DNA of 24,691 nt, taken from a virus. Lineage: Duplodnaviria; Caudoviricetes. The DNA lies in IMG/VR virus record IMGVR_UViG_3300020413_000079, positions 1 to 24,691 of that record; one strand, given 5' to 3'. Positions 3,201 through 24,392 of this stretch are shown here, piece after piece (position 1 is the first letter of the stretch; each line of letters opens with the position of its first letter). A model generated the notes under the pieces. The model did not search any database. It was not told the DNA's origin and was given only the letters and a program-made list of their open reading frames with translations. The position numbers were made by a program, and so were the translations under genes.

Positions 3201-6200
3201 AGCAGATATGCAGGGAATAAAATACAACCCTAAAGGAATGCTTAGAGCAGCTTTAAAGTTAGCTAAGAAAAGTAAAAATCAAATAGAAGTAAACGCATTG
3301 GAAGGGGCATTATCTAGAGCTAAGTCTGAGTACTACCCATTAGTTAGATTTGGAACAGGTACTGTATTTGTTTACTCAGATGTAATGGTAGATACAGCTA
3401 AGAGTGAAATAAAATTTTTAGAAAGTCAAAGAAAGGGAGGAGCAGAAGGCCTTTCAGCGGCAGACTTTGAAGTTCTAACTGATGAAGAAAAACTAACCTA
3501 TCTAGAAATTACTGATAGCATACAAGAGTATCAAGATATAATAGAAGTTTCTTTGGCAAAAAGAAAAGAATTAAATTCCTTATTAGAAAGTTTTGACATA
3601 GAACCTTTATTGAATTTTAAAGATAACAGAGCAAGAGTTCCTGGCGCTCAAACATTAACTAAAGTAAAAACTCAAGTTAAAAAATTAAGAAAAGAACTCT
3701 ATGGGTATGATGAGAATGTATATGAAAAGAATACACAAACTTTTTGGAGTATATCTAATTACCCCAACTCACTAGATCGCCCACAACTTTCTGAAGAAGT
3801 TATAAGATCCATGGCTGTCATTGGTGATCAATTTCAAAAAGAACTTAATCGAATGGGGCTAGATAATCTTAGTGTAAGATTAATAGATTCTATAATGACT
3901 GAGAAAGGGGCACCTTTAAATGGTAGATTCTTTGGTGGTCTAGGTTTGATAGAGGTTGCTATGAATGCAACTACTCCTGTAGATAATATAGCTCTTGCAG
4001 ATTCTCAACGTTACACTATGCATCACGAGTCAATGCACTATATATTTAATAATTTGTTAACACCAAAAGAACAACAAGTATTACGTAACGCTGCTAGAAA
4101 AACTTTAATTGATAGATACAATATTAAAAACAGATACGGCCCATTTGGTTTAGATCAAAGTCAAATGGAAGAAGAAGCGATCTCTGATTACTTTGCAGAG
4201 TATATGGCAACAACTCCTAACGGTGCATTAGATAGTCCAAAAGGAATTATAGGCAGAGTCTTTGAAAGAATACGGTTGTATATTACAACTCTTGCAAATG
4301 TACTTAGAGGCAATGGATTAAATCAAGCTAATCAAGTGTTTAATAAATTAGACTATGCAACAGTAATAGCACGAAGAGCTATTATGTCTAAAGCTGTTAT
4401 GCAAACTACAGAAATAAGTAACATAGCCAAGGCTGCAGGCATATCTATAGATGAAGCTCAAGCATTTGTACAACGAGGACTTATAAAAACTAAAGTATTA
4501 AATTCAGGATATAATACAGGAAGTGTTACAGACAATAAAGGATTGTATGCTTCGTTTGTGTTGTATCAACAACCAAAAACAGGACTAATGATTGATCCAA
4601 GTTTAAGAAAAATAACTACATTAGTTAACGGTTTAATGAAATCTCTCACAACTAAAGAGGGTATACCAAATATAAGTGAAGCTAATTATTATTTAGCAGA
4701 GCTAAAGAAGATAACACCTCAAGAATTAAATGCAGCAATAGCTTCTTTACAACTTTCAGACTCATCTTTTGCAGACAAATTTGAAACGTTTAGTGCTATG
4801 GAATTAGGAACTGCAACTAGGGCACAAAGGCAAGTAATGAACCTTTTATCTTCTTTAAATTCTAGAACTCAAGGCGAAGAAATATTTACTAATCGATTAA
4901 ACAGAATCACACTACCTACTGAATCTGATTTAAGAATAGCAGGTTCTATTAAAAAAACATATCACTTTACCACTGACGGTTCAGCTGTTCCTACACTTGA
5001 TAAGAGTAGAGTTAGTGAACTTGGAATGCATTTTGCAAGCAGTGAGATGCAAGCAAAAGATAGATACAACATGAAGGTAAGACGAGGAGAAACTACACTG
5101 ATGCCAGTCTTAGGAGGAAGAACAAAAACGGGTGGCGTATTATTTCAAGATGGTCGTTTCGATATAGACTCAACGGTTGAAGAAGACTTAGGTAGTATTA
5201 ATACAGCAATCTTATACATAAACAATCCATTAAGAATGCCAGACATGGGCAACTGGGAAACTACAGATGTGTTAGATCAATTAACAGAAACACCTACCAG
5301 TAAAAATTTTAGAGGTTTTAGAACTTTTTATAACACTGTTGATATTTCTCCTGTTCTATTTACAGAAAAAGAAAATGGCGCAATACTTCGTGAGTTAGGA
5401 AAGATTGAAGAAAAGTCTAGGAAGTCTCCAGTTGAAGGGTATGGTAGTTATAGAAGCAAACAATCAAGATACTTAGTAGAAAAAATAAAAGAAAAAGGTT
5501 ACGACGGTATTGTATATGTCAACATGTCTGAAGGTATGCGCGCAGGAGATTTTGGCAGAGGAGTAGAAAAAGGGGCACAGGAATCTTTTATAGTCTTTGA
5601 CGACAATCAAATACAAAGAGTTGAATTTAATAGTAACCCAGATTTTACAGACATAAATTATCAAGCATCAGTACAAATGCAGGAGTCAGTTGCAGATGAT
5701 GAGTTAAGTAAACCTGAAACAATGAATAGACAACAACAAAAAAAAGGTGTTGATGATTTAAAGAAAACAGCAGAAGCCACTGATAAAATATTTGAAGATG
5801 GTAAAGAAGCTAGCTTAAAAGACATAAGTTTCTTTGGTAAGTGGGCAAACCATGCTAGAAACTTTGCTACCAAATATCCTGTAGTAGCAAGACTGTGGGA
5901 TTCCATATCTAAAATGGAACAAAAAGGAAGAGAAATTCAAACGCAATTTGTTATGGATATGCGAAGATACTTTGAAGTAATCAACAATGTAGAAGGGGCT
6001 AAAGAAGCGTTAGCTAAAGCACATATTATATCACAACAAGAAGGCGCGCAAGGTAGATATAGAAGAGATGCCAACGGTCAAATTATATTTGTATCACCAA
6101 TAGACATGACTACTGGTGGAACTGGACAGAATGTTGTAACAATTAACAAGGGTGAAATAATTATATTAGAAGGGGATATTGCTACAGCTTATGAAGAAGC

Positions 6201-8838
6201 TCAGATTGCAATTCAAAAGTTATTAGAAGAAATTAAAAAAGGAATGATAGCATCTAACTACGTAGATGATATTATTAATGCTGCAAAGATGATAAACATT
6301 ATGGATCCTAGATTATTACAACAAGTAGGATTAGATATAGATAGTTTGAATAGAGATAATGTAGAAAATTTAAACTTCCAACAATTAAGTGCTATAGTAG
6401 GCGGACTACAAATGATGGAGCAAAGACAAGTACAATCAAAGCAATTAGAATTATTTGCCCCTATTGAAGAAATACAAAAGTTACTTGGTACAGAGGACTC
6501 AGGGCTAAGCGCTTTACTAAAACAAATAGGCATATACGAGCAATATAAAACATTTGATTATGTACCACTGCAAAGATATGGGGAGTTTTTTATTACTGTT
6601 AAAGATTCTAAAGGTAAAGTAATTCATGCGGAGAGTATAGAAAAACCATACATAGAAGAACGAGCAGCAGGTCAAACTTTTGAAAAAAAGAAAGACGAAG
6701 TGATAAGCAAGTTAGCTGGATTATATCCATCATCAGCGGGGTTTGTAATATCAGATGTAAAAGCAAGTAAAGATACAGAACGTGAAAAAGTTATACAAGA
6801 ATTTTCTGCATTGGATGTACTAGCATCTAAACTGCCAGAACCTAATGCTAAAGCTTACGCTGAAGTCAGAGCGATATTAGATAAACGTATAGAAGGGGGC
6901 ACTTTAGTTGGATTTGATCAATTCCTAAGGGGCAGAAAACAAATTGGTGGTATTCCAGGATTTGATGGAGATATTGTAAGAGGTATATCTTCGTTCGGTA
7001 TGGTAGCTGCAGAGTACGCAGGAAGAAACAGATTCTTAAAAGAAGTAAGAGATCGAACAGCAACTGCTATAAAATACACAGAGCAGCCTGGCAATCAAAG
7101 ACCGAAGTTAAAAGAAGCTATAAAAGGTATTGTTAGCTATGGGGTGGACAATGGGCATCAGCATGAGTTTGCTATGGCTAGACGTATGGGATTCTGGTGG
7201 TTCTTAGGTGGAAACTTATCTTCAGGTATACTACAAATAATGAGTGCAGTACAATTTACTGGGCCTATCCTTGCGCAATTTAGTAATTCAGCAACAGTTG
7301 CTGCTCAAATGACCAGAGCTGTGGCTGACGTTTCCAAGATGATTACATTTACTAATAACGAATTTGCTGATGTTTATCTAGACTTTGATAAAATACCTGC
7401 AGATGTTAGGGAAGTAGTTAAAGAAGATGTAGCTAATGGTATCATTAAACAAGGGCAAGCAATATACGAAGCAGGCATGGCTCCAGGATATGCTATGACT
7501 CCAACTGAAAAAACAAAATTACGATCTAAAGTAAGACAATTTGAACAAAGCGTTATGGGTGGTGTCTTTAATACTTTCGAGACTATATCTCGTTTAACTG
7601 CTTATATAGCAGCATATAGAATAGCAAATAATAATGCAGTTATGGAAAAAGCAAATGACTATTATGGTTCTGCTAATAAATTATGGAATGAGTATAAATC
7701 TAGAAGAGGGGGTGTTGCTACACAACAAGACTTTGCTAGAATATTAGTTGATGATACGTTTGGGGATTACTCTAAAGCTAATAGACCTAAAATAATGAGA
7801 GGACCTGGTTCTGTATTCTTTTTATTCCAAACTTATATCAGTCAAATGTTTTTCTTACTAGGAAGATTATTTACACAAGGAGGTCCAACAGGTAGAAAAA
7901 TGTTTGCAAGAGTTATGCTAATGTTATTTATAACTGGAGGACTTATGGGTATGCCAGGAATGGAAGAGCTTGATCAGATATACAAAATGATACAAAGAAT
8001 GAGAGGTGTTAACGAGGACATGAGAACACAACTAAGGGAAATGTTTACTGAAACTGTAGGTCCTCAAGCTACTGAATATTTAATGCAAGGTGTCATAGAA
8101 GCTGGGACGGGGGCAAGTGTACAACGTAGATTATCTTTAGGTGAAGTACCAGGATCTGCTCAGATAAGATCACTTATGGGCATGCTGGGTTTCCCTACTG
8201 GAGCAAGAGCGGAAGAATTTTTAGGAGCACCTGGTGCGGTGTTTATAGATTCAGCTAGAGAAATGATAGACATATATAGTAAAGAAGGAAACGCAGCATT
8301 TTATAATGATTTAGATTTTTACATGGCAGCTATGCCTACATTTATTAAAAACCTATACAGAGCAACATACAAATATCCAACCGAAGGATATGTAGAAACT
8401 AAATATGGTAATATTGTAACGTCTGATTTAAATGGATTGGATCTTTTAAAACAAGGAATGGGTTTTACTCCTACTAAAATATCTAAAGAAAGAACTGCAC
8501 TGTATTATGATAAAGCCATAGAAGGAAAGTATACTGGCGTTATAAGAAAATTCAACAGTAGAATTAAAAGAGCATACAGAGACATCTACATTGGCATCAA
8601 TGTAAATCCTGACAGTAGCATGGTTAAAGATGCACAGCTAGAAATTAATAAAGTAATGAGAGAGATTATGGCATTCAATAATAAAGTAGGATATGAGTAT
8701 ATGTTCTTCCCACAGTTAAGCCAGTTACAATCTGAGGGTATACAACAAGCTAACACTACATACCGTAATCTTAAAACTGATAAGAAAACTATTAAGATGA
8801 AACAGAAAATGCGTGAGTCTTTAAATATTAAAGATTAA
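259..8838 (+). CDS. Giant (2859 aa) polyvalent internal virion/ejection protein: N-terminal lytic transglycosylase, Gly/Ala-rich hydrophobic segments, HExxH zincin-like peptidase, ART-like domain, PLxRFG motifs, helical C-terminal domain
   Basis: RBS TAAGGA; SLT-type motifs AQIESSGG and ARGIYQF (~367-440); HHESMH (4021-4038) plus EEAISDYF; TYHFT...GMHFAS...GYDGIVY...ESFIVFDDNQI (~4957-5613) as in ART-PolyVal; PLVRFG (3337-3354) and PLQRYG (~6565-6582). Confidence 0.85.
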   Translation: MADDVLPIRKPIDIRTLLGAMYNAPALSNLDNFIENVAQIESSGGKDTVSDISSARGIYQFLTKGEGNAFQTGLNRTERTYKLKGDKVPSWINEARKHNDPNKLTPKQQEDVMLANLYQQKGTDDYFKRILAGDKLAQAQMYGTYHHTVPDIYKDDRISEIFGIEKRQEGGPVNAGQPYLVGEDGPEIIVPEQSGTVIPNNQLASPFNLQFDATAFADAYAQLFPTEPVGEPLPEKPKMKYITFEDPNAPRFEVPENLTKEQLQRYMKSPEIEQEMYNKGYLYKYGLDPVRYDDPQNLDDWNFTAGVKSGYDNLKSIGSGFLYTMADLFNNEEYENKFAEMVGQYNLDAGVHQFKEGEEGKPDLRITTIEGMLQDENKLGAFLDWASFNMGVGVATMVPLIGAAVVGGIAGGGATLLTVPITGAKIGLGGLSFLLGSYGMGVGEATNAQLERSGDSNAAISLAAGIPYAASEAAFGVSSQIISSFAKRGGLSGTTKEVLDNIIKRKFNKSVTDPSIIKEVAKGVSKGFAGEATAEGLQEIITSSAAEIGAGASLKDLYSTPDFWKQVGEAAAAGGVAGFGIGAIPGAINYTKQSRSKVEGAFGIGEIDPTDNETVKKTGATVGDVITIEGAYQAENPEYETENNPPQFTILGSTTNTDGTKNIVLKNNTTNTIQLLNEKEASKVIKLEQNQIDKQETTEKFEKEEPVPSDTRINKVIAELKRRGLTSKQIIDSALEEEGVKSKEEWKRERLEEAGVELTNYDEGIAAGETMGSLPGWMKSLDPETRAEGELDILLEREWTKWTKRTLNNSINSANINNITKQEQEQLAKLGYDNGPQGQALIETHRRDFTRVKDNSKTNRGRQRIKEIIDQGVAYEPMTVSTRTLIESRRVPPLQQRSEQEFQNLTQQQKLADFETAKVDEEIQSARLQKRNLDKKDPTYKENIRELDLQIDNLITQKNARVLESSSALGRIDAIVDILNRADMQGIKYNPKGMLRAALKLAKKSKNQIEVNALEGALSRAKSEYYPLVRFGTGTVFVYSDVMVDTAKSEIKFLESQRKGGAEGLSAADFEVLTDEEKLTYLEITDSIQEYQDIIEVSLAKRKELNSLLESFDIEPLLNFKDNRARVPGAQTLTKVKTQVKKLRKELYGYDENVYEKNTQTFWSISNYPNSLDRPQLSEEVIRSMAVIGDQFQKELNRMGLDNLSVRLIDSIMTEKGAPLNGRFFGGLGLIEVAMNATTPVDNIALADSQRYTMHHESMHYIFNNLLTPKEQQVLRNAARKTLIDRYNIKNRYGPFGLDQSQMEEEAISDYFAEYMATTPNGALDSPKGIIGRVFERIRLYITTLANVLRGNGLNQANQVFNKLDYATVIARRAIMSKAVMQTTEISNIAKAAGISIDEAQAFVQRGLIKTKVLNSGYNTGSVTDNKGLYASFVLYQQPKTGLMIDPSLRKITTLVNGLMKSLTTKEGIPNISEANYYLAELKKITPQELNAAIASLQLSDSSFADKFETFSAMELGTATRAQRQVMNLLSSLNSRTQGEEIFTNRLNRITLPTESDLRIAGSIKKTYHFTTDGSAVPTLDKSRVSELGMHFASSEMQAKDRYNMKVRRGETTLMPVLGGRTKTGGVLFQDGRFDIDSTVEEDLGSINTAILYINNPLRMPDMGNWETTDVLDQLTETPTSKNFRGFRTFYNTVDISPVLFTEKENGAILRELGKIEEKSRKSPVEGYGSYRSKQSRYLVEKIKEKGYDGIVYVNMSEGMRAGDFGRGVEKGAQESFIVFDDNQIQRVEFNSNPDFTDINYQASVQMQESVADDELSKPETMNRQQQKKGVDDLKKTAEATDKIFEDGKEASLKDISFFGKWANHARNFATKYPVVARLWDSISKMEQKGREIQTQFVMDMRRYFEVINNVEGAKEALAKAHIISQQEGAQGRYRRDANGQIIFVSPIDMTTGGTGQNVVTINKGEIIILEGDIATAYEEAQIAIQKLLEEIKKGMIASNYVDDIINAAKMINIMDPRLLQQVGLDIDSLNRDNVENLNFQQLSAIVGGLQMMEQRQVQSKQLELFAPIEEIQKLLGTEDSGLSALLKQIGIYEQYKTFDYVPLQRYGEFFITVKDSKGKVIHAESIEKPYIEERAAGQTFEKKKDEVISKLAGLYPSSAGFVISDVKASKDTEREKVIQEFSALDVLASKLPEPNAKAYAEVRAILDKRIEGGTLVGFDQFLRGRKQIGGIPGFDGDIVRGISSFGMVAAEYAGRNRFLKEVRDRTATAIKYTEQPGNQRPKLKEAIKGIVSYGVDNGHQHEFAMARRMGFWWFLGGNLSSGILQIMSAVQFTGPILAQFSNSATVAAQMTRAVADVSKMITFTNNEFADVYLDFDKIPADVREVVKEDVANGIIKQGQAIYEAGMAPGYAMTPTEKTKLRSKVRQFEQSVMGGVFNTFETISRLTAYIAAYRIANNNAVMEKANDYYGSANKLWNEYKSRRGGVATQQDFARILVDDTFGDYSKANRPKIMRGPGSVFFLFQTYISQMFFLLGRLFTQGGPTGRKMFARVMLMLFITGGLMGMPGMEELDQIYKMIQRMRGVNEDMRTQLREMFTETVGPQATEYLMQGVIEAGTGASVQRRLSLGEVPGSAQIRSLMGMLGFPTGARAEEFLGAPGAVFIDSAREMIDIYSKEGNAAFYNDLDFYMAAMPTFIKNLYRATYKYPTEGYVETKYGNIVTSDLNGLDLLKQGMGFTPTKISKERTALYYDKAIEGKYTGVIRKFNSRIKRAYRDIYIGINVNPDSSMVKDAQLEINKVMREIMAFNNKVGYEYMFFPQLSQLQSEGIQQANTTYRNLKTDKKTIKMKQKMRESLNIKD

Positions 8839-9611: not shown

Positions 9612-10847
9612 TTATATCCATTTTACCCACTCCGATTTTGGCTTCTTGTCTAAGGCTTGCTCAGATATTACAGGCAATTGGAAAGTTATTCCATACTTAG
9701 GGTGTGTAAACCATAAGGCTTGCCGTGGCTCTTCATAAGAGAACCTATTACTCATAGCATATTCGTCATATCCTTTAAGAGATCCGTTAACTATAATACC
9801 TTTTAAAGATAGATACTGATGCCAGTGTCCCATGATAACGTAATCAATAGGCTTTTTATGTGTGGCATATTCAGCTTTAACTTTGGCTACCCCTCTAGAA
9901 ATAGGGCCAAGCATACCAACTACTCCACTGCCGCCCTTAACTCCTAGCCTGTCTCCATGAGTGAGCAAGTAGTTAACGTCATATATTTTGTAGTATGAAT
10001 CAAAGCCATAGTTTATTTGAAACTGTACTCTTTTGTCTTTAGCATTAGTATAATGTTTCTCAAGCATAGTATATAGCATCCAGTCAAAGCTAGTTGCTGC
10101 TGCTTGTTTATGTCTGTATTGTCTAAACATTCTTCCATGATTTCCAAATGCACATGGCACAAATACCTTACCAAACACATCAGCTAATGAATCAATAGCC
10201 CATGTCAAGTGATCAAACAATTCAAGCACATGCTCTATGTTAGTTCCGTCATTTGTTTCTGTTAACTCTTCATGTATATGTCCAGATATCATGTCACCAC
10301 CCAAACATAAAACAATACCAGGATACTTTGGATTAACCATATGGTTAGTGCATAAATCAATAGTAGATTCTATTGTAGACTTAAGCCTAGCTTTAGCAAT
10401 ACTTCTGTCGTATTTATTTAAACCGTTCACTTCATCTGGATTAACTACCTCACCCCAGTGTAAATCAGATAGAAACAATGTAGGTACACCAGGTGCTCCG
10501 TGTGCTGGAGAACTTTTTCTTAGCCACTTAGGTGGTTTAGCTGTGCGATTATGTAATTTAAATACTGTCTTTCTTATTTGTTCGGCAGTAATATTATCTA
10601 AGGCTAATTCTTTTACTTGTTTTTTTAAATCAGATATTTGCATATCATACAAAATCTTTTGCTCTATCAAAGCTGCATCAGTATCAGGTGCATTTACTGT
10701 TGGTGCAATACCCTCACGCTCTGCCGCTTCTAGTCTACCAATCAAGGTAGTTCTAGGTATACCTAAAGTCTTAGCTGCTTCTGCTTTGTTACCTTTAGCT
10801 ACAACTAAAGCATTAATTGCTTCTAGATTTTTATTTTCTATACCCAT
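9612..10847 (-). CDS. HTH + coiled-coil + calcineurin-like metallophosphoesterase
   Basis: N-terminal Fis-like HTH (GNKAEAAKTLGIPRTTL); metallophosphoesterase motifs SDLHWGE, GGDMISG, FGNHGR, THGD, MGHWH. Start moved from 10862 to the ATG at 10847, which follows a GGAG RBS. Confidence 0.85.
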   Translation of the reverse strand: MGIENKNLEAINALVVAKGNKAEAAKTLGIPRTTLIGRLEAAEREGIAPTVNAPDTDAALIEQKILYDMQISDLKKQVKELALDNITAEQIRKTVFKLHNRTAKPPKWLRKSSPAHGAPGVPTLFLSDLHWGEVVNPDEVNGLNKYDRSIAKARLKSTIESTIDLCTNHMVNPKYPGIVLCLGGDMISGHIHEELTETNDGTNIEHVLELFDHLTWAIDSLADVFGKVFVPCAFGNHGRMFRQYRHKQAAATSFDWMLYTMLEKHYTNAKDKRVQFQINYGFDSYYKIYDVNYLLTHGDRLGVKGGSGVVGMLGPISRGVAKVKAEYATHKKPIDYVIMGHWHQYLSLKGIIVNGSLKGYDEYAMSNRFSYEEPRQALWFTHPKYGITFQLPVISEQALDKKPKSEWVKWI

Positions 10848-11223
10848 TTGATACATCTCCATTGTTTACAATTCTACCAAAGCTATCCACTATTGACCCT
10901 TGAGGCGCACCTTTTAATTTGCCCTTGTTGTCATAAGCTTCAGCTACCACTCTATAAAATACTTGTTGATCAGTTCCAGGAACCATGTTGTTGGACCACT
11001 CACCTGTCCTCTCATACCTTCTTAACTCAGCAAGATTAGCTTTATGATGTAGGTAATCTCCATAAGCTTCTGCATGATTCTTATCTCTTTTACCTAGCTT
11101 TCTAGATACTTTATAAGCTTGAGCCGCTGCTTCAGTCTCTTGCTTCTTTAACTTATCTATTTCTTTTTGAGTATGTTTCTTAGCAGGGCTAAGTTTTAAC
11201 GGATAGTCTGGGTGATATTTCAT
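10831..11223 (-). CDS. Hypothetical protein (130 aa, MKYHPDYPLK...)
   Basis: ATG at 11223 preceded by AGGAGAGAG; the track start at 11253 lies inside a hairpin and is unlikely. No recognisable motif. Confidence 0.75.
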   Translation of the reverse strand: MKYHPDYPLKLSPAKKHTQKEIDKLKKQETEAAAQAYKVSRKLGKRDKNHAEAYGDYLHHKANLAELRRYERTGEWSNNMVPGTDQQVFYRVVAEAYDNKGKLKGAPQGSIVDSFGRIVNNGDVSNGYRK

Positions 11224-14570: not shown

Positions 14571-14793
14571 CGTTTGAAATATCTATTATATCACCAATCT
14601 TTTTAAAATCAAGGTTTTCTTTAGGTATATTAACTAACTTATAAACTTTAGCCTTTGTCTCTACCAAAATCTTTCCATCCTTGTATTGCATTTTACAAGG
14701 CCCTTCAATCTCTACTGCATGGCACGTGTTTACCACGTCTCCTTCATCAACAGTAAAAGTCTGCTCATCGTTGTTGATACATATTTGCTTCAT
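14563..14793 (-). CDS. Small phage hypothetical protein (76 aa)
   Basis: Strong GGGAGGT RBS; overlaps both neighbours; HAVEIEGPCK...VET pattern recalls small aquatic-phage proteins. Confidence 0.7.
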   Translation of the reverse strand: MKQICINNDEQTFTVDEGDVVNTCHAVEIEGPCKMQYKDGKILVETKAKVYKLVNIPKENLDFKKIGDIIDISNDE

Positions 14794-15415
14794 GTTTTAC
14801 CTCCCATTTTTGTGGTTTCCAATCTTTGTCATAATTTTCATGCTTATGAAATATGGATGGTTTCTCAAACCAAATGCTAGAAGCCAAGTTCTCTCTGACT
14901 CCTGCGTGTACATATGATACTCTATGCAATCTAGCTGAGTCATATATTACCATCCTATTTTGTACACATCTAATTGTTTCTTTAAAACTTTCTTCTGCGC
15001 CTAGCTCTAAGTAATTATGAACAGCTAATCGCTGATTCCTTTTTTCTCTATCATCAAAAGGATATAACTCTAAATTACCGCCCACTAAATCTTCTACCAT
15101 TGTATAGTAAACCATGCTAGCCCCTGCAATTTCATAATTATCTGTACTAAATTCTTTTTCATTAGTGTCTTGATGCCAAGCTAAACCAGGATTGGGTGCA
15201 GTTAATTTTCTTGACCAGTACTCTATACCTGCAGGATAATTATCAGAATTCACGTATGGTCTCCATAGCGAATGAAGAGCTTGCTCTACAGAATTTCTTG
15301 GAGCAACCCTCCACCATCCATCCCACCAATTATAATCTGGCATGGTTTTATAAGATAAACTATTTACTAAACGCAATCTAAATTCTTCTGGTATCGCATC
15401 ATCAAACAGGATCAT
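14765..15415 (-). CDS. 2OG-Fe(II) oxygenase (prolyl-hydroxylase-like)
   Basis: WHQD (HxD), GGNL, NRMVIYD, LHRV (distal His), VRENL (2OG-binding Arg); RBS AGGAGA. Confidence 0.85.
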   Translation of the reverse strand: MILFDDAIPEEFRLRLVNSLSYKTMPDYNWWDGWWRVAPRNSVEQALHSLWRPYVNSDNYPAGIEYWSRKLTAPNPGLAWHQDTNEKEFSTDNYEIAGASMVYYTMVEDLVGGNLELYPFDDREKRNQRLAVHNYLELGAEESFKETIRCVQNRMVIYDSARLHRVSYVHAGVRENLASSIWFEKPSIFHKHENYDKDWKPQKWEVKHEANMYQQR

Positions 15416-16103
15416 CTAATATCTCCTTCCTTATCTTTGTTGCTCCAAGATGTGATCTCCCAATTACATCAAAATATTTATGATATTTTATATACTCATC
15501 ACCCATCATGAGTTTCTTTTCAACAACATATTTTTTACCTGATAGAGGAATTGCATGAGCAATTATATCGCCGTAATTAAATTTTAAATAACCAAAGCCT
15601 TTAGGTATATACATATTAATCCTCATAGGCATAGGATTTTTAGACTGTTCTATGACTCCATTTAATACATGAATGTTTAATCTATCTCCCCAAAAATTAT
15701 TAGTAATTAAAAAACTTTCTTTCTCTTCAGTTACAAAACTATATCTGCAAACTATTTTAAAATGATGATAACGCTCACTAAAAGCACTGCCTGTTTGAAC
15801 ATCAGGGTGTATGCTGCCAGCACTTTCTGGAGAATACCTTATGCCTATTTTATTATCATCAGTTAAAAACTCTGATATTTCAAGTTCCAAATCCAAAGGC
15901 AATGCAAAAGAATTTTTATATAAATCAATAAAACCAGGGCACCCTTTCATAGTAGGGTTCATAAGTGGTTGGGTTTCGTCTTGTGAAACAAAGTGTCTAG
16001 GCAATTTCTTCCACCATTCAGGTGCATATTTAAGGCTAGGTGCCATAGGTTTATAGTCATGAATATATGCATCATCAGTTACAAATTTTATTACATTAGG
16101 CAT
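15402..16103 (-). CDS. Beta-rich phage protein often found beside oxygenases (DUF6065-like; function unknown)
   Basis: PEWWKKLP, TMKGCPGFIDLY and GDIIAHAIP motifs recalled from marine-phage proteins in oxygenase-rich regions; AGGAG RBS before ATG 16103. Family name tentative. Confidence 0.6.
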   Translation of the reverse strand: MPNVIKFVTDDAYIHDYKPMAPSLKYAPEWWKKLPRHFVSQDETQPLMNPTMKGCPGFIDLYKNSFALPLDLELEISEFLTDDNKIGIRYSPESAGSIHPDVQTGSAFSERYHHFKIVCRYSFVTEEKESFLITNNFWGDRLNIHVLNGVIEQSKNPMPMRINMYIPKGFGYLKFNYGDIIAHAIPLSGKKYVVEKKLMMGDEYIKYHKYFDVIGRSHLGATKIRKEILDDPV

Positions 16104-16755
16104 TATCACTCCTTGGTAGATTTGGTATATAAGTATACCAATGTGTAATAGAATATCTACCTAGACCTAGTATATTTAGTTTAGGGTCATTCATCTTAAT
16201 AGGTGTTACCTCGTGGTTAATAAAACTAGGGAAGAATATTAATCTATTGTGTTTTGATTCTACTTTAGTTTGTATTTCAGGTAAAAAGAAATCACCACCA
16301 GTATATCTCTTTGGTGTTTTATGAAACCATATAATGATTGAAAATAGAAAGGTATCGTGGTGTGCTTTATAATAATCTGAATCATTATAGTAAGTAACTA
16401 AAGTTCTATCACAATTTGATGTAAAGAAATTTCTACTCATTGGAGTTAATTGTTTAGCCTTCTCACAAAACCAATCTGTATTAATTAGTTCTTGTTGTTT
16501 AGTTAATATAGTTGATACATTTCTAGCTTGTGGTTGATATGTTTCATCTAAGAATATTCTAAAAGATTGACCAGTTGGTTTGCCTTCTTTATCTCTTGCA
16601 TAAGAATTATCATTTCTAATCATTTTATCTTCGTTTGTATAAAACTCTAATTCTTTCCATACGTCTTTTTCAGATTGTTCATCATACCAATTGTCAACTA
16701 ACATTACTGGAAAGGCAGGATTTTGATTTATAAAAGTATATTCACGCATTGACAT
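16096..16755 (-). CDS. 2OG-Fe(II) oxygenase
   Basis: YKAHHD (HxD), YTGGDF, NRLIFFPS, NHEV, GRYSIT; overlaps the polymerase stop; start may be 16749. Confidence 0.88.
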   Translation of the reverse strand: MSMREYTFINQNPAFPVMLVDNWYDEQSEKDVWKELEFYTNEDKMIRNDNSYARDKEGKPTGQSFRIFLDETYQPQARNVSTILTKQQELINTDWFCEKAKQLTPMSRNFFTSNCDRTLVTYYNDSDYYKAHHDTFLFSIIIWFHKTPKRYTGGDFFLPEIQTKVESKHNRLIFFPSFINHEVTPIKMNDPKLNILGLGRYSITHWYTYIPNLPRSDNA

Positions 16756-18292
16756 ACTTCTTCATGTCCTTCCAATTAGATCCTATCTCACAGTCAGATG
16801 GTATTATCATCTGTCTGCCATTTACTTCCATAGGATTTTTCATACAGTTTAAAATTTTAGGAACGATCACATCAGCTTTATCTTTAGGGAACTGTCCCAA
16901 TATAGCATCGTGCACTTGTCCAAGTATATCTACTCCGTCTTCTTTCAATTCATTCCAGACTCTATACAAACCTAGATTTAAAAGATCACCTATAGTAGAT
17001 TGTGGCACGTATGCAATTGCCTTCCTCAAAGTAGTGCCGTCTTCTATGCGTCCCCAAAATTGTCTGCGACGACCTAATGGAGTAGTCAACGAGCTGCTTT
17101 CTTTAAGTTCAGCAGCAATAGCATTGTGCCACTTTCGGATTCCAGGGAATGCCCCTTCGATACGAACGAGAGAGGAAGGGCCTGACCCTAGAACCGTGCC
17201 CCCATCAATCAGTTCTTGGAAGCCTCCCTCTCTGTCCTGTTTATGCCATCTTTCTAAAGATGCCAAAGCAATTACTCCTCCGTAGTAAAGTAATTGAAAC
17301 CGTGTTGCATGAGACAATTTAATTTTAAGATGCCTGCCTAAAGATGTAGCTGACAGTCCATAGTTAGTTCCATGCCCTGCTCTTTTACACATATCTCTGT
17401 AACTAAAGTGGCCAATATAAGGACGATCCGCTAACTCTCTATTCTGTGCACGGTCAGATGACCACCCCATATTTGGCCACACCATCTTAACTACTTGTGT
17501 GTGTAAGTCTTCCCCTTCGCAAGCATTTATATATCCTTGATCACCTGCAACATATGCAGTAACCCTTGACTCAGCTTGCTCAAGGTCTGCGTAAAATAAT
17601 ACATTGTCCCCATCTGGTACAAATATTTCGCGCATATCTTTTGTAATATTTTGTAGGTTAGTTCCTGTTCCCCAAGGACTTTCAGAACTTGCCCACCTAC
17701 CTGTCTCAGTTCCTGCTACTTTAAAAGAACAACGCATCCTACCATCTCCATCTCTCTTCGCATTTAAAATATTTAATTGCTTATCTATATCACGTAAAGC
17801 CAAGATGGTTCTACAGAAAGGCCTTGCTCTAGGATACTCTTGTATCAAATGCTCAAGTGCTTCTTTATCTGTTGATACTTTTTGTTTACCTTTAACATAA
17901 GAAATAACTTCGGGCAGACCTAACCACTCATATAAAAAACTTTTTAATTGTGTAGGACTGTTGTGATTAAGATCTCTGTCCCATACTGCATTAGCAAATA
18001 GGTGTAGCATCCGCTCAAGCTTAACACGTGATGAGACAAGGGGGGCTTTGAGTCTACCTACAGTTTTCTCATCAACCTTTAACCCACGCAACATCATGTG
18101 CATAGCTGGCTTAAGCATATCTAATTCAAACTGATATGTCTTTCTATAATCGTGGTCATTTCTACCGAGATCTTTTTCTATCTTAGTCCATATCTCATGT
18201 GTCAATGTGCAATCTAATCCACAGTAAACCCACAAGGTTTGCTCTTTAGACAGTGATGTCTGTGAGATCTCCGTATTCTTTATTATTCGCAT
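16742..18292 (-). CDS. polA: Family A DNA polymerase, polymerase subunit (carries ExoIII only)
   Basis: TETGRWAS, TNLQNI, motif A ADLEQAESRV, motif B RDMCKRAGHGTNYG, TPLGRRR, PQST, motif C QVHDAI; N-terminal YCGLD ExoIII; AGGAGGA RBS before ATG 18292. Confidence 0.93.
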   Translation of the reverse strand: MRIIKNTEISQTSLSKEQTLWVYCGLDCTLTHEIWTKIEKDLGRNDHDYRKTYQFELDMLKPAMHMMLRGLKVDEKTVGRLKAPLVSSRVKLERMLHLFANAVWDRDLNHNSPTQLKSFLYEWLGLPEVISYVKGKQKVSTDKEALEHLIQEYPRARPFCRTILALRDIDKQLNILNAKRDGDGRMRCSFKVAGTETGRWASSESPWGTGTNLQNITKDMREIFVPDGDNVLFYADLEQAESRVTAYVAGDQGYINACEGEDLHTQVVKMVWPNMGWSSDRAQNRELADRPYIGHFSYRDMCKRAGHGTNYGLSATSLGRHLKIKLSHATRFQLLYYGGVIALASLERWHKQDREGGFQELIDGGTVLGSGPSSLVRIEGAFPGIRKWHNAIAAELKESSSLTTPLGRRRQFWGRIEDGTTLRKAIAYVPQSTIGDLLNLGLYRVWNELKEDGVDILGQVHDAILGQFPKDKADVIVPKILNCMKNPMEVNGRQMIIPSDCEIGSNWKDMKKYVNA

Positions 18293-18566
18293 CTTGTTCC
18301 TCCTGTACAGTAGCAATCAATTTATCTATAAACCATTTAGCTTTTTCTAGATCTTGAATTGGTTTGCTCTTGTGTTCGTATCTCCAAATATATTTTAATA
18401 TTGATCCTTGTAAATAAAATTTAAACCCATCACCTTGGCAAGACTTAATCGCATCAATGCAACCAATACCACCTTTGTTGTAATGTGCTGGGAAATTTAC
18501 TGGATCATTCTTTTCTTTTGCTTTCATCTTTCTCGCCAGTTCCTCCATACTTTTTACGTCTGTCAT
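18246..18566 (-). CDS. DUF3310 protein (related to T7 gp1.7 nucleotide kinase)
   Basis: DPVNFPAHY, CIDAI, GSILKYIWRYEHK and QDLEKAKWFI signature. Confidence 0.88.
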   Translation of the reverse strand: MTDVKSMEELARKMKAKEKNDPVNFPAHYNKGGIGCIDAIKSCQGDGFKFYLQGSILKYIWRYEHKSKPIQDLEKAKWFIDKLIATVQEEQDANNKEYGDLTDITV

Positions 18567-18834
18567 TAGCTACCCCCATTATGTAATAAAATTCATCTCT
18601 TGTTTTATCTGGATCTAAGTATGCGTAATCACATACCGCTTCGAAATCTTCTTTGTCATTTATTAACCATTCTTCAGCGTCATCTTTATATCCTCTAAAC
18701 TCTTTATCAAATCCCATGTAACTTATATCCTGTAATGCTTGATCCAATACTGCTCTCCATAATTCAATCTCATTATATACGGTTATATCTTTATCCTGTA
18801 AAGGCTTTGCAGCAAAGTACTGGGGACGTTTCAT
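18505..18834 (-). CDS. Phage hypothetical protein (109 aa)
   Basis: ELWRAVLDQALQD...DAEEWL...DFEAVCDYAYLDP pattern; ATG directly follows the upstream stop codon. Confidence 0.75.
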   Translation of the reverse strand: MKRPQYFAAKPLQDKDITVYNEIELWRAVLDQALQDISYMGFDKEFRGYKDDAEEWLINDKEDFEAVCDYAYLDPDKTRDEFYYIMGVANDRRKKYGGTGEKDESKRKE

Positions 18835-19911
18835 TTATGCCTCGGCCTTCGTGCTCTTTGAAAAATTTGTTAGATTTTTCCATGCTCCCTCGTTCGTATA
18901 AATAGATCCTAAATATCCCAAGCTCTTTTCTAACTCTGGTTGTAGCACATGTTGCGCATGCATAGTGTCATGTACCACTCCCTTTACTTCGATGCCATAC
19001 ATGTGTCGCAACCATGATATGTCATACGTCTGATTCTGTGCAACCTTTGTTATGTTTGGGTTGCTTAATATATCTCCTATCAATTTCCATACAGCTAACT
19101 CTGTATGATAGTCATAAAAATCTTTACCATCTGCTCCTTTAAATGGTATCACCATAGCTTTCTTTGCATGTGGAGCAAACCCAATACAAGTTATTTCTTC
19201 GTTAGCTGTTTCAATATCAAAAGATAAAGGGTTGTAAGATGCATTCACTTTCTCACAGAAAGATAAGAAATGTTTTACTTCTTCATAAGTTGGTTCAATG
19301 CAAAGTTCTCTTTCAATGTAGTCTATGTTTTGTTGATTAGCCGCTTTCTTAAAATCTGAAAGAACAGTAGGCCTAAAAGAATAATTCTTAAGCAATGCAA
19401 CTGGACTGTAGGTTGGCATAACTTTATACTCTTTGTTAATGGTGTCAATAAACGAACCTCGATACGATCCTACTTTATCCAAACCACACAATGCCCAGAA
19501 GGCTACGCTTCCCATCGCTATAATAGTGTTAGGTTTGTACCTATCTATCTCTTCCCATAATCTTTCAATGTCTTGTTCATACTCTTCTTTTAAATATCCG
19601 TACTGAGTGGGGGCAAACTTTGACCTCCATTCAGTTTCCTTTTTAATATTTTTATATTCACTTCTTTTGTAGAAGAAACTCTGCAAGTTATCTTGTGCAG
19701 GTTTTAATTGAATTGCGTGAGTGAGTAATGCGTTGCTAGCATCAATGCCAGCAAACTTAAACATCGGATCTAATACTGATTGTATAGACCCTACATTAAT
19801 CTTACCAAGCCTAGCTTCTGTTGTCGTAGGACAATCCATAATTATGGCAAATGGATTCCCAGACTCTGGAAGCTGAGACTTAATTCTATTATGTACCGCA
19901 AACTCACTCAC
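18835..19911 (-). CDS. Degenerate UDG(family 4)-like domain fused to the N-terminal part of the PolA 3'-5' exonuclease
   Basis: UDG-like segments (AGID...LTHAIQLKP, EIDRYKPNTIIAMGSVA, RGS, PTYSPVALL); ExoI SFDIET; ExoII AQNQTYD; HDTMHAQHVLQPE...SLGYLGSIYT; no ExoIII before the stop. GTG start. Confidence 0.85.
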   Translation of the reverse strand: MSEFAVHNRIKSQLPESGNPFAIIMDCPTTTEARLGKINVGSIQSVLDPMFKFAGIDASNALLTHAIQLKPAQDNLQSFFYKRSEYKNIKKETEWRSKFAPTQYGYLKEEYEQDIERLWEEIDRYKPNTIIAMGSVAFWALCGLDKVGSYRGSFIDTINKEYKVMPTYSPVALLKNYSFRPTVLSDFKKAANQQNIDYIERELCIEPTYEEVKHFLSFCEKVNASYNPLSFDIETANEEITCIGFAPHAKKAMVIPFKGADGKDFYDYHTELAVWKLIGDILSNPNITKVAQNQTYDISWLRHMYGIEVKGVVHDTMHAQHVLQPELEKSLGYLGSIYTNEGAWKNLTNFSKSTKAEA

Positions 19912-21614: not shown

Positions 21615-22184
21615 CTATTTATAATTAATATTAATTGTAATTCTTTCTTTCGCATATATAGGACATGTAGTTCTATGTAGTACATTGCTATTAAAGAATA
21701 TAGCTCTGTTCGCATAGGTGCCTACATAATCTATACTACCATCGTCTCTCTTAAATTCTATCCCAGTATCAGCACTGTCCGCACACCACACCATGGCAGG
21801 GTGGACCTCGTTCTTCTCAGCCGCCGCAAAATCCCTATGAAAATCATGCTTTGCGTGAGCCTCACTTGCTCTAATATATAAATTACATTTAATCCTACCC
21901 AAATAAGCAGGTTCTAATCTATTAAGTAAAGGCATAATTTCTTCTGGTATAGGTCTAACCATATTAGGTTCTACGAAATAAAGTACATTACAAAAATATC
22001 CATTGGCCTGATCCATCAATGCATCTTTCATATTCCCTTGCAGATTCTCATATCCAAAAGCTGCTTCTGATTGATAGTTCCATTGTAAATTCCTTAAATA
22101 ATTATTAAGCCTCTCTTGAGAGTTAACGTCTAAATAATTATCAACATAATAAATATCATCTGCAACTGTAATTCCTCTTCTCAT
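21615..22184 (-). CDS. 2OG-Fe(II) oxygenase
   Basis: RIKCNL, FHRD (HxD), NRAIFFNS, LHRT, ERITININY; probably leaderless. Confidence 0.82.
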   Translation of the reverse strand: MRRGITVADDIYYVDNYLDVNSQERLNNYLRNLQWNYQSEAAFGYENLQGNMKDALMDQANGYFCNVLYFVEPNMVRPIPEEIMPLLNRLEPAYLGRIKCNLYIRASEAHAKHDFHRDFAAAEKNEVHPAMVWCADSADTGIEFKRDDGSIDYVGTYANRAIFFNSNVLHRTTCPIYAKERITININYK

Positions 22185-22190
22185 ATTCGT

Positions 22191-22219
22191 ATTATATCAA
22201 ATTAAATTTAATCCGTCAA
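22191..22219 (-). promoter_or_regulatory. sigma70-type promoter TTGACG-N17-TATAAT with extended -10; 12-bp palindrome ATTAAATTTAAT in the spacer
   Basis: Minus strand reads TTGACG gattaaatttaatttga TATAAT acgaat ATG. Confidence 0.82.
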
Positions 22220-23217
22220 TCATTTTCTGGTACCCATTCTATTTCTAATTCTGGCTCAAACTCAATAACATTATCGTCATTGCGCAATGATTCATGTACC
22301 TCACGATCAAACAATTCTTCAACAACTTTTTGTCTGTGGTCTGGAGACTCATTACATATCTCTCTATATTTACAGCCACCATAATTTCCACAAGCAGTAA
22401 AGTCTGCAGGATAATAATTTTGATCAGCATATATTTTGGCCATAGATAATTTATGAACCGCATCACCGTACCATTCCTCAATAATAGATGAGGGCACTTT
22501 AAATACTGCACGATTAAATCTACAAAAATTTGCACCAGTTTGTACTGCATCAATAATAAACCCAGCGACATCTAAACCTAAAATATTTTTAGCCGCCCAC
22601 AGGTAAGCATATATCTGATTGTTAGGGGCAAACTGATTAAAGTAATAGTCAGTTAAACTTGCTTTAGTAGTTTTAGTATCAACTAAATACAACTCATTAT
22701 TTAACTCTGCTACTTTATCTATCCTGCCAGAAAATCTTAAACCATCTTGAGTCTGCATACTAATAGGAACTTCAAACCTCTGTTCTAATGCAGGAGTACC
22801 ATCTTGCATTGATGCAATCTTTATAGTATCTTCCCAATATTCTTCTGCTCTCCATACAATAGCACGCAAAGCCGCTTCTAAATTTCTAGCTTTGTCATCA
22901 GACTGTTGCAAGGATTCTCCGTGCTCAACAAGAACTAACTTAATAGCTTCAGCTACTGCTTGATCCTTAGTTCTTCCCATAAAACGAGCCAAGTCTAGTT
23001 GTTCGTAGCCATCATGAACAGCTGATCCAAATCCCGTAGCTGTAGAATATATTTTAGATTTATATCCTAAAAGGTTTTGAAAGTTATAGTAACGGGGGCA
23101 CGAACTAAATGATGAAAGACTAGACGTATCCCATACCATTTGTTTTGCATTGCCGCCATCAAGCCACACATACTTTGGAAACTTTGGTGCCTCTATATAT
23201 CCTATTCCACTATCCAA
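22216..23217 (-). CDS. Cas4/AddB-like PD-(D/E)XK exonuclease with probable 4Fe-4S cluster
   Basis: SSLSSFSSCPR, FGSAVH, EQRF, GRIDKV, VDTKT, QIYAY, C-terminal CGNYGGCKYREIC (1+3 Cys). Probable TTG start at 23217, 7 nt after GGAGGT. Confidence 0.88.
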   Translation of the reverse strand: MDSGIGYIEAPKFPKYVWLDGGNAKQMVWDTSSLSSFSSCPRYYNFQNLLGYKSKIYSTATGFGSAVHDGYEQLDLARFMGRTKDQAVAEAIKLVLVEHGESLQQSDDKARNLEAALRAIVWRAEEYWEDTIKIASMQDGTPALEQRFEVPISMQTQDGLRFSGRIDKVAELNNELYLVDTKTTKASLTDYYFNQFAPNNQIYAYLWAAKNILGLDVAGFIIDAVQTGANFCRFNRAVFKVPSSIIEEWYGDAVHKLSMAKIYADQNYYPADFTACGNYGGCKYREICNESPDHRQKVVEELFDREVHESLRNDDNVIEFEPELEIEWVPEND

Positions 23218-23842
23218 TTCTTTCACCTCCGAACCAACTAACAACAGAATATCTTTTACCTTCTGTAACTGGTTTTACTGTGTGCATTACGCAAGAAGGA
23301 AAGACCAAACAATCTCCTGCTTTTAATGGGACATTTAATTCTTCCGCTATTACACGACCATCTCTGATGTTTAATCTATACATAACAAATTCTCCTCCTT
23401 TAAAATCATCATTAAGTAAATGTACGGTACTTATCTTTCTTATTTTTCCTAGTTTGTATGCATCATCTAGTCTAGAAACGGACATGTTTTTTCCTTCATC
23501 GTCCCACTCATAGGCTTGATCTAAATTACCATCTACATGTGGCACGTAGTGTCCTCCCGCATCGTAAGTCAAATACTGGAAAGGTTCTTGGAAATCTATT
23601 TTATATTTCCAGTTTGCTCTATTATTTGCAACCGAAACCATATGAGCAGTATCAACACTCAACTCATTATCTTGATGTAATACAGATACTTTGACGTTTC
23701 TTCTTGACTCATCAGCTTTGGGTCCATCAGGTGTCATTATTGTAGCTTTCTCTCCTTGACTTGTGTCCATATTTTTGATGATGTATTTTCTTTTAGTTTC
23801 ATCTATCGTGCCACTAAAATGCCAAAACAATTCGTTATACAT
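23210..23842 (-). CDS. 2OG-Fe(II) oxygenase (PKHD-type/prolyl-hydroxylase-like)
   Basis: QYLTY, PHVD (HxD), RKISTV, FKGGEF, GDCLVFPS, MHTVKPVTEGKRYSVVSW; ATG 23842 after GGAGA. Confidence 0.92.
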   Translation of the reverse strand: MYNELFWHFSGTIDETKRKYIIKNMDTSQGEKATIMTPDGPKADESRRNVKVSVLHQDNELSVDTAHMVSVANNRANWKYKIDFQEPFQYLTYDAGGHYVPHVDGNLDQAYEWDDEGKNMSVSRLDDAYKLGKIRKISTVHLLNDDFKGGEFVMYRLNIRDGRVIAEELNVPLKAGDCLVFPSCVMHTVKPVTEGKRYSVVSWFGGERIG

Positions 23843-24392
23843 TGTCTTCTCCAAAATCTAAATTACCTGCCAACACAACTCTTGGTTCGTCTGATTGATT
23901 ACGCATAGTAAAGTGGGGAACCCAACCAGGAAAAAATAGTAAAGACTTGTTTGCAGGATCAGCCTTGCATACTTCAAACTTGGTGTCATAATTTATGTAC
24001 CAGTTTAGTATGCCACAATCTCTGGGGGCATTGACATAGTACACAAATGCAAAACAGTTTTCGTGCTTATGCATAGCAGTAGAACCACCTTTGTAATTAA
24101 CTTGACCCCACACCTCTGAACCAAAGTTAGATTTCATTATCGTAAGTTTCTCCTGAACTGTGCGAACATGTTCGAGTATCTCATCTAAGGTATCTTTAAC
24201 AAATGGTTTATCTGGATCTACTCTTATGTCTTCACTAGTTGGAAGTGAGTAATCGTTAGATACAAATCTACCATCGTTGTTTCGTTTAACTAAATACTCC
24301 ATCAGTTCTTTGTCTCGTTTGCCTTTCAATGTCCAAGAGTGATACCCGTAATTAGGAACCCATGGTTGAAAGCTTCCTTCAATAGTTTTCAT
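23835..24392 (-). CDS. Putative 2OG-Fe(II) oxygenase, HxH type
   Basis: VWGQ, MHKH (HxH), AFVYYV, LLFFPGWVPH, RVVLAGN. Confidence 0.82.
   Translation of the reverse strand: MKTIEGSFQPWVPNYGYHSWTLKGKRDKELMEYLVKRNNDGRFVSNDYSLPTSEDIRVDPDKPFVKDTLDEILEHVRTVQEKLTIMKSNFGSEVWGQVNYKGGSTAMHKHENCFAFVYYVNAPRDCGILNWYINYDTKFEVCKADPANKSLLFFPGWVPHFTMRNQSDEPRVVLAGNLDFGEDNV

What the first reader, a model, noticed from the sequence alone, without database searches (positions are those of the whole stretch)
16742..19911. Family A polymerase split through the middle of its proofreading active site, with two genes in between
Seen: ExoI (FDIET, 19207-19221) and ExoII (NQTYD, 19021-19035) lie in the UDG-like ORF, which stops at 18835. 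ExoIII (YCGLD, 18212-18226) is at the N-terminus of the polymerase ORF, which has its own AGGAGGA RBS. A 109-aa gene and DUF3310 fill the gap. Established: DEDDy exonucleases need carboxylates from all three motifs. Inference: proofreading exists only when the two polypeptides assemble, giving a heterodimeric PolA whose fidelity or strand displacement could be tuned by subunit ratio; the intervening small proteins might be further subunits. I see no intein or intron signatures.
Basis: partly seen in the sequence, partly recalled or inferred. Interest (0 to 1): 0.78.

Follow-up and report, generated by a model that had tools for sequence, protein, structure and literature searches.

The report
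Two-chain proofreading site in phage polymerase
This marine phage, like a wide group of relatives that includes a cultured Caulobacter phage, encodes its DNA polymerase as two separate genes cut inside the proofreading domain, so the two proteins likely have to assemble to proofread, while the small genes between them are likely swappable passengers.

Summary
Observation confirmed. A UDG-like + ExoI/ExoII gene (358 aa) and an ExoIII + PolA gene (516 aa, own RBS) lie 542 nt apart in different frames. The cut is not an accident. It is found in 252 of 255 related loci with both halves (38 clusters at 90%), including cultured Caulobacter phage Kuura, and the split forms make one clade among fused UDG-PolAs (SH-aLRT 99-100). 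All exonuclease carboxylates are invariant on both chains. A complex model docks the ExoIII helix and a new N-terminal leader into the exonuclease core (0.89, best control 0.00; halves of split genes pass easily). No intron, intein or spliced RNA was found. The gap holds 0-5 varying genes, so they are not general subunits: DUF3310 swaps with DUF6378, and the 109-aa gene is confined to one subclade. Tuning by subunit ratio has no support. The UDG domain is degenerate here. Known split PolAs are cut elsewhere (S-SBP1 after ExoIII). I found this cut in no paper searched; the scan noted a similar cut on other DNA (untested here). Verdict: new variant of a known kind, testable in Kuura.

The parts
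18835..19911 (-). N subunit, 358 aa: family-4 UDG-like domain (catalytic motifs degenerate) plus 3'-5' exonuclease core with ExoI and ExoII; ends in a short K-x-[DE]-x tail
   Evidence: Pfam; AF2 model pLDDT 89 matching UDG family 4 and Klenow exo, residues 350-358 low confidence; motif state; tail
19207..19221 (-). ExoI motif FDIET (D232, E234)
   Evidence: D232 and E234 in 67 of 67 aligned N subunits
19021..19035 (-). ExoII motif NQTYD (N293, D297)
   Evidence: N293 and D297 in 67 of 67
18505..18834 (-). 109-aa gene of unknown function; starts on the base after the N-subunit stop; confined to one subclade
   Evidence: no Pfam; only unnamed Atlas clusters; HMM hit in 240 of 252 split loci, absent from 12 deep-branching ones
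18246..18566 (-). DUF3310 gene (PHROGs label 'nucleotide kinase'); replaceable cargo overlapping the polymerase start
   Evidence: this slot holds this DUF3310 type in 88, DUF6378 in 100, a second DUF3310 type in 49, none of the three in 15 of 252 split loci
18298..18304 (-). AGGAGGA ribosome-binding site of the polymerase gene, inside the DUF3310 gene
16742..18292 (-). C subunit, 516 aa: ~20-aa leader, ExoIII helix, then thumb/palm/fingers of a family A polymerase with His at the position of E. coli F762
   Evidence: H307 in 76 of 76
18212..18226 (-). ExoIII motif YCGLD (Y23, D27)
   Evidence: aligns to Klenow YAAED; Y23 and D27 in 76 of 76
18236..18292 (-). Leader of the C subunit (M-x-I-I-x-[TSN] pattern), extra relative to fused enzymes; residues 1-7 predicted to touch the N subunit

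Best explanation
This is a phage UDG-type family A DNA polymerase encoded as two genes cut between the ExoII and ExoIII motifs, whose two products likely assemble without splicing into a heterodimer that is predicted to rebuild one proofreading site from residues of both chains. The N chain gives D232, E234 (ExoI) and D297 (ExoII); the C chain inserts its first long helix with Y23 and D27 (ExoIII) into the exonuclease core, and its new N-terminal leader is predicted to add contacts. The fission likely happened once, in the ancestor of a wide podovirus-like clade, as an overlapping stop/start pair. The seam then likely served as an insertion slot for small accessory genes, several of them like nucleotide-handling enzymes. 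The genes likely share one transcript with coupled translation, which would keep the chains near equal amounts. In this marine branch the UDG domain has lost its catalytic motifs and likely serves as a template-guiding or processivity module. Shown: gene layout, motif positions, conservation, clade structure, cargo turnover. Predicted: the complex. Inferred: activity, coupling, role of the UDG domain.
For: Layout and motifs. Split at the same point in 252 of 255 loci with both halves; these collapse to 105/38/14 clusters at 99/90/55%. Cultured Caulobacter phage Kuura has the same cut at 35% identity. 113 of 120 top polymerase homologues begin 10-29 residues before the ExoIII Tyr; the other 7 begin mid-domain. 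107 of 120 top N homologues end within 45 aa of the last exonuclease motif. Split forms are one side of a branch in both trees: 25 split vs 17 fused, SH-aLRT 100; 24 vs 17, SH-aLRT 99. ExoI/II acids in 67 of 67 N chains and ExoIII Tyr/Asp in 76 of 76 C chains. Complex model: ipSAE 0.89, best of 3 controls 0.00; runs agree in at least 92% of contacts; partner pLDDT at least 86; the mark was reached by 116 of 157 solved complexes and 2 of 215 mismatched pairs; interface includes C 1-7 and 20-39 and N 230-232, 234-235. Gap from -8 to 1629 nt with unrelated cargo. Precedent for a split enzyme with a two-chain active site and functional new tails: Aeh1 NrdA (PMC3045599, passages).
Against: No biochemical data. 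The complex score can come from likeness to solved single-chain polymerases, as the tool warns for halves of split genes. Loci were found with queries from the split clade, so the 252 of 255 count is not an unbiased census, and it is redundant. Trees are quick runs without bootstrap and midpoint-rooted; no AU test was run. The N-chain tail 348-358 is conserved but is not in the confident interface, so its role is unexplained. The overlap ATG is present in 72 of 99 distinct junctions but opens an ORF of 45 aa or more in only 20, and is absent in this window. Co-transcription rests on gene spacing; RNA data are thin.
Confidence: 0.85

Rival explanations
1. The halves are joined after all, by RNA splicing, ribosomal bypass or protein trans-splicing, into one polymerase chain.
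For: Introns interrupt other phage polymerase genes (PMC10580990, passages). Three relatives carry intein-like inserts inside the C chain (read by eye, no Pfam intein match), so such elements do reach this family.
Against: No Rfam intron model. The gap ranges from -8 to 1629 nt and is filled with unrelated coding genes. The termini add only about 16-24 residues over fused enzymes (43 vs 19-27 between fixed points), too short for a split intein (size from established knowledge). The C gene has its own RBS and a Met at a fixed distance. Contigs from two RNA libraries run through the N stop into the gap gene, and no joint skips the gap (depth 2-3, DNA in the library not excluded).
Confidence: 0.03
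2. The chains work apart: the N protein is a self-sufficient nuclease or a structural relic, and the polymerase works without proofreading.
For: Each chain folds alone with high confidence in AF2 (pLDDT 89 and 95). The N tail has a conserved Asp/Glu (37 of 47 distinct tails have K at -4 and D/E at -2) that could in principle supply a carboxylate.
Against: ExoIII Tyr and Asp are kept in 76 of 76 C chains, which has no reason if they are unused. The N model lacks the ExoIII helix and its tail is low-confidence. The tail Asp codon is GAT in 73 of 74 junctions, which points to a DNA-level overlap start rather than catalysis. The complex model supports binding.
Confidence: 0.05
3. In the marine subclade the 109-aa protein has become a third subunit or assembly factor of the heterodimer.
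For: It sits directly behind the N gene in nearly all members shown and has an HMM hit in 240 of 252 split loci, down to relatives at 45-49% polymerase identity.
Against: Absent from 12 deep-branching split loci including Kuura and the gapless L262, so the heterodimer does not need it. Those 240 loci are one subclade and highly redundant, so retention can be simple inheritance of a useful gene. No three-chain model was run.
Confidence: 0.1
4. The split is kept because the phage varies the ratio of the chains to tune fidelity or strand displacement.
For: The C gene has its own strong RBS. Czernecki et al. raise differential regulation as a possibility for S-SBP1-like splits (PMC10201439, passage).
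Against: Genes abut or overlap; no terminator-like site in the gap and promoter-like sites at chance level, 21 vs 19.6 +/- 4.7 (this scan does not cover phage-specific promoters). PolAs are said to need the exonuclease domain for stability (same paper).
Confidence: 0.08

Closest known systems
Split exo/pol PolA of S-SBP1-like and S-TIP37-like T7-type cyanophages (PMC10201439 section 32; PMC12695635 passages)
   Same: Phage family A polymerase in two genes, predicted to re-associate without splicing.
   Different: S-SBP1 is cut after ExoIII: its exo gene holds all three motifs, the genes overlap with nothing between, and it is T7-type without UDG. Here the cut divides the exonuclease site and the gap takes cargo genes.
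UDG-PolA fusions: N4-like, SPO1-like, SP-15/phiLo/YerA41 (PMC10201439, PMC13697223) and fused relatives such as Microcystis phage Mel-JY34
   Same: Domain order UDG-exo-pol; phiLo structure is a fold match to the N chain; fused relatives surround the split clade in both trees.
   Different: Those are single chains. This one is about 870 aa in two chains, has His at the F762 position, and here an apparently inactive UDG (intact motifs in 28 of 67 split relatives).
Aeromonas phage Aeh1 NrdA-a/NrdA-b (PMC3045599, passages)
   Same: Essential phage enzyme in two genes with an intervening gene, active site from both chains, no splicing, new terminal tails.
   Different: A ribonucleotide reductase split by a homing endonuclease, with oppositely charged tails. 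Here no endonuclease gene is seen in the gap, both termini have net charge +1, and the split is fixed across a deep clade.
CCPol-MP of staphylococcal mobile elements (PMC10201439)
   Same: PolA that keeps only the last helices of the exonuclease domain and binds a separate protein there.
   Different: CCPol lost the rest of the exonuclease and took an unrelated partner; here the missing part is kept as a gene with intact catalytic residues.
Other split phage PolAs: MEP401/402 (PMC10580990), Vibrio phage VS-ABTNL-3 and MW202554
   Same: PolA in two genes with a small gene between; the last two are UDG-PolA relatives.
   Different: Cut inside the polymerase domain (MEP401, VS-ABTNL-3) or just after the ExoIII helix (MW202554), not inside the exonuclease site.

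Membership tests
Family A DNA polymerase | Polymerase domain with motifs A, B, C and Klenow fold | tested here: met
   PF00476 over cut-off; D236, K303, Y311, D462 in 76 of 76; fold matches Bst/Taq Pol I, TM about 0.7
Family A DNA polymerase | DNA synthesis activity | not testable with these tools
   needs an assay
DEDDy proofreading exonuclease | ExoI DxE, ExoII NxxxD, ExoIII YxxxD all present | tested here: met
   present across two chains and invariant
DEDDy proofreading exonuclease | All three motifs on one polypeptide | tested here: not met
   stop at 18835, different frames, 542 nt gap; the only PF01612 match in the record stops at position 130 of 173
UDG-PolA | Family-4 UDG-like domain ahead of the exonuclease | tested here: met
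   PF03167; fold match to family 4 UDG and phiLo polymerase; encoded on the separate N chain
SPO1/SP-15-like UDG-PolA with active UDG | Catalytic Glu, Asn and His of the UDG motifs kept | tested here: not met
   window has MDCPT, THA and TYSPV where intact relatives have GEAxG, TNV and TYHP
S-SBP1-like split PolA | Cut at the exo/pol boundary with a complete exonuclease gene, overlapping genes | tested here: not met
Intron- or intein-interrupted polymerase | Group I/II intron RNA or intein halves at the break | tested here: not met
   RNA contigs show no joint across the gap (weak)
Genes-in-pieces enzyme with composite active site (Aeh1 NrdA type) | Two chains bind and only the pair is active | tested here: inconclusive
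   model supports binding; activity not testable
Genes-in-pieces enzyme with composite active site (Aeh1 NrdA type) | Homing endonuclease gene at the break | tested here: not met
   none among the window's two gap genes or 18 gap proteins of relatives scanned; 6 of the 18 had no Pfam match

The most novel reading that the evidence does not exclude
A clade-wide two-subunit phage replicase in which the subunit interface is the proofreading centre itself, locked by a newly evolved N-terminal leader. The polymerase chain could run with or without its UDG-exonuclease partner, making proofreading and template guiding a detachable module, and the seam between the genes is a coupled cargo slot that puts nucleotide-pool enzymes under the same control as the replicase.
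Probability: 0.2. Interest if true: 0.78.

Novelty: new variant of a known kind. Interest (0 to 1): 0.58.

Why it matters
Split family A polymerases were first described in 2023 with a cut at the domain boundary. This is a separate fission through the proofreading site, fixed in a large phage clade (about 1000 and 1400 stored stretches estimated in the viral and metagenome collections for the polymerase patterns) with one cultured member whose N gene is annotated 'hypothetical'. It gives a natural split point for engineering a polymerase whose proofreading switches on only when two chains meet. It lets the UDG-like domain's role be tested by simply leaving out or swapping a subunit. It also warns that PolA surveys will misread these enzymes as exonuclease-free.

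Tried and rejected
Frameshift or assembly error: rejected by conservation. Intron: Rfam gave nothing. Split intein: termini too short, no His-Asn end in the leader. Ribosomal bypass: gap length and content vary. Gap genes as universal subunits: rejected. Oppositely charged tails as in Aeh1: both termini +1. Promoter/terminator scan: chance level. Atlas search for the 109-aa protein: unnamed clusters only; a DUF6280 cluster at 0.90 with 24% of members is a weak lead; its locus search found only close relatives. Genome collection: 5 loci, three split members in MAG contigs that are probably viral, so no host assigned. RNA runs: only small shares, all contigs, no raw reads; parts without cover say nothing. 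Paper searches with no hit: gp43A+gp43B, two ORFs/UDG/marine phage, Exo III/two-subunit. Rows left out of trees: 7 of 24 fused proteins (near-copies or a bad cut point), and L265 from the N tree as a contig-end fragment. No three-chain model with the 109-aa protein and no model of a fused relative were run.
Full report
Observation. The window is a linear virus record of 24,691 bases, estimated 42% complete. On the minus strand a replication block runs PD-(D/E)XK nuclease, Sak4-like AAA protein, SSB-like protein, then the finding, then 2OG-Fe(II) oxygenase-like genes, a DUF3987 primase/helicase-like gene and a class II ribonucleotide reductase. The upstream ORF (19911-18835, 358 aa) holds a UDG domain and an exonuclease match that ends at profile position 128 of 173. 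The polymerase ORF starts at ATG 18292 behind AGGAGGA and is 516 aa. YCGLD aligns to the Klenow ExoIII motif. A 109-aa ORF starts on the base after the first stop, and DUF3310 overlaps both it and the polymerase start.

The split is inherited. Of 142 loci examined first, 131 held both halves; 129 were split and 2 fused. With profiles over 286 loci, 280 had a polymerase match: 252 split, 3 with ExoII and ExoIII in one ORF (Mel-JY34, MW202489, VS-ABTNL-3), and 25 without the upstream half, 24 of them because the match lies within 863 nt of the locus start. The 252 are redundant: 105, 38 and 14 clusters at 99, 90 and 55%. They were found with split-clade queries, so this is no unbiased census. 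Still, a search for longer proteins found fused forms only at 34% identity or less (21 proteins), and none of the top 120 polymerase homologues is fused: 113 begin 10-29 residues before the ExoIII Tyr and 7 begin mid-domain. Caulobacter phage Kuura, a cultured podovirus (PMC9959647, passages), is cut at the same place at 35% identity, with two unrelated genes in the gap and its N gene annotated hypothetical. In trees of each half the split forms are one side of a branch among fused UDG-PolAs (25 vs 17 rows, SH-aLRT 100; 24 vs 17, SH-aLRT 99; quick runs, no bootstrap, midpoint root). One fission is the simplest reading.

The proofreading site is kept on both chains. D232, E234, N293 and D297 are present in 67 of 67 aligned N chains, Y23 and D27 in 76 of 76 C chains. 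These alignments used 66 of 120 and 75 of 120 listed homologues plus the window. DEDDy exonucleases need acids from all three motifs (established knowledge), so this conservation is best explained by an assembled site. AF2 models show the N chain ending without an ExoIII helix and the C chain starting with a free helix at 16-41. The two-chain model scored 0.89 against a best control of 0.00; runs agree in at least 92% of contacts and partner pLDDT is at least 86; in calibration the mark was reached by 116 of 157 solved complexes and 2 of 215 mismatched pairs. The interface includes C residues 1-7 and 20-39 and N residues 230-232 and 234-235. Halves of a split gene tend to pass by likeness to solved single-chain enzymes, so this shows compatibility, not binding.

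New termini. Between two fixed points the fused enzymes have 19-27 residues (23 of 24 measured), the split pair 43. The C leader has a conserved pattern, with hydrophobic residues at position 4 in 76 of 76, and touches the N chain in the model. The N tail ends K-x-[DE]-x in 37 of 47 distinct tails. Its Asp codon is GAT in 73 of 74 junctions, which places an ATG 8 nt before the end of the stop codon; this ATG starts the polymerase gene itself in L262 and an ORF of 45 aa or more in 20 of 99 distinct junctions. I read this as a trace of an overlapping stop/start at the original fission. It is an inference: related junctions are not independent, and the window itself has GAG there.

The gap is a cargo slot. 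Its length runs from -8 to 1629 nt and it holds none to about five genes. Contents include DUF3310, DUF6378, DUF7768, a PNKP-type HAD phosphatase, and weak matches to HD nucleotidase, dATP/dGTP pyrophosphohydrolase and SLOG families (12 of 18 proteins scanned matched Pfam at E 0.01). The second slot holds this DUF3310 type in 88, DUF6378 in 100, another DUF3310 type in 49 and none of these in 15 of 252 loci, never two together. The 109-aa gene is in 240 of 252 loci, all in one subclade, and missing from 12 deep-branching loci. So neither gene is needed for the architecture; a subclade-specific role of the 109-aa protein stays open.

No sign of rejoining. Rfam finds no intron; the extra termini are too short for intein halves; the gap is too variable for bypass. 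Contigs from two RNA libraries of different studies run from the N gene through its stop into the gap gene (18762-19015 and 18764-18915), and no joint skips the gap. Depth is 2-3 and DNA in the libraries is not excluded, so this is weak.

UDG domain. The window has MDCPT, THA and TYSPV where 28 of 67 split relatives keep GEAxG, TNV and TYHP. Active fused UDG domains excise uracil ahead of the fork, and a strand-displacement role is suggested where catalytic residues are lost (PMC13697223, abstract and passages); a processivity role was proposed earlier (PMC3201878, passages). A non-catalytic role is therefore the likely one here.

Comparison with what is known. Czernecki et al. describe a split PolA in T7-like cyanophages (PMC10201439; passages and section 32). 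In S-SBP1 the exo gene holds all three motifs, so that cut differs. MEP401/402 are cut in the polymerase domain (PMC10580990, passages). Two UDG-PolA relatives are cut elsewhere: VS-ABTNL-3 in the palm and MW202554 just after ExoIII, so fission recurs in this family. The closest mechanistic precedent is Aeh1 NrdA (PMC3045599, passages). Split family B polymerases of T4-like phages and a methanogen I saw only as reference titles in that paper. A 2026 preprint on a split chimallivirus polymerase (PMC13648687) I saw only in a listing. I found no paper on this cut in searches; the library lacks most subscription papers, and I did not read supplements, such as Kuura's Table S1, which may annotate the N gene. 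The scan's own index has one note of a PolA cut inside its proofreading domain in a marine T4-like phage; it was not found by sequence with either chain and I did not test it.

Verdict. The extra-subunit and ratio-tuning ideas are not supported. It is a new variant of a known kind, notable for cutting the active site, for its depth and spread, and for having a cultured member.

Noticed in passing
window 17372-17374 (C chain H307): Histidine at the position of E. coli Pol I F762 in 76 of 76 aligned C chains and in the fused relatives shown; the passages read in PMC10201439 name Phe, Tyr and Leu there.
   Followed up: partly
P0215, P0239, P0244: Three C-chain homologues carry inserts of about 290 aa that begin with Cys and end TGN before Thr or Ser, like inteins; two sit in motif B, one next to the TGR motif. 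Pfam gave no intein match.
   Followed up: partly
L335:1727-4364 (MW202554): A UDG-PolA relative cut just after the ExoIII helix, with a short zinc-ribbon-like frame in the gap.
   Followed up: partly
L143:4873-8007 (VS-ABTNL-3): A UDG-PolA relative cut in the palm just before motif A, with a 184-aa gene between the halves.
   Followed up: partly
window 14765-16755 and 21615-24392: Several short genes that look like 2OG-Fe(II) oxygenases (three with Pfam matches) and a redoxin are scattered through the replication block; one RNA-library contig joins 16099 to 16749, as in a relative lacking the gene behind the polymerase.
   Followed up: no
window 17325-17140 (C chain about aa 330-380): An insertion of about 40 aa in the fingers region relative to Kuura, modelled with high confidence and shared by the marine subclade consensus.
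   Followed up: no
window 259-8838: A 2859-aa protein on the plus strand, matching phrog_11358 at its C-terminus; likely an internal virion protein.
   Followed up: no
window 9612-10862: 416-aa protein with an N-terminal helix-turn-helix followed by what reads as a metallophosphoesterase-like domain (by eye, recalled motif).
   Followed up: no
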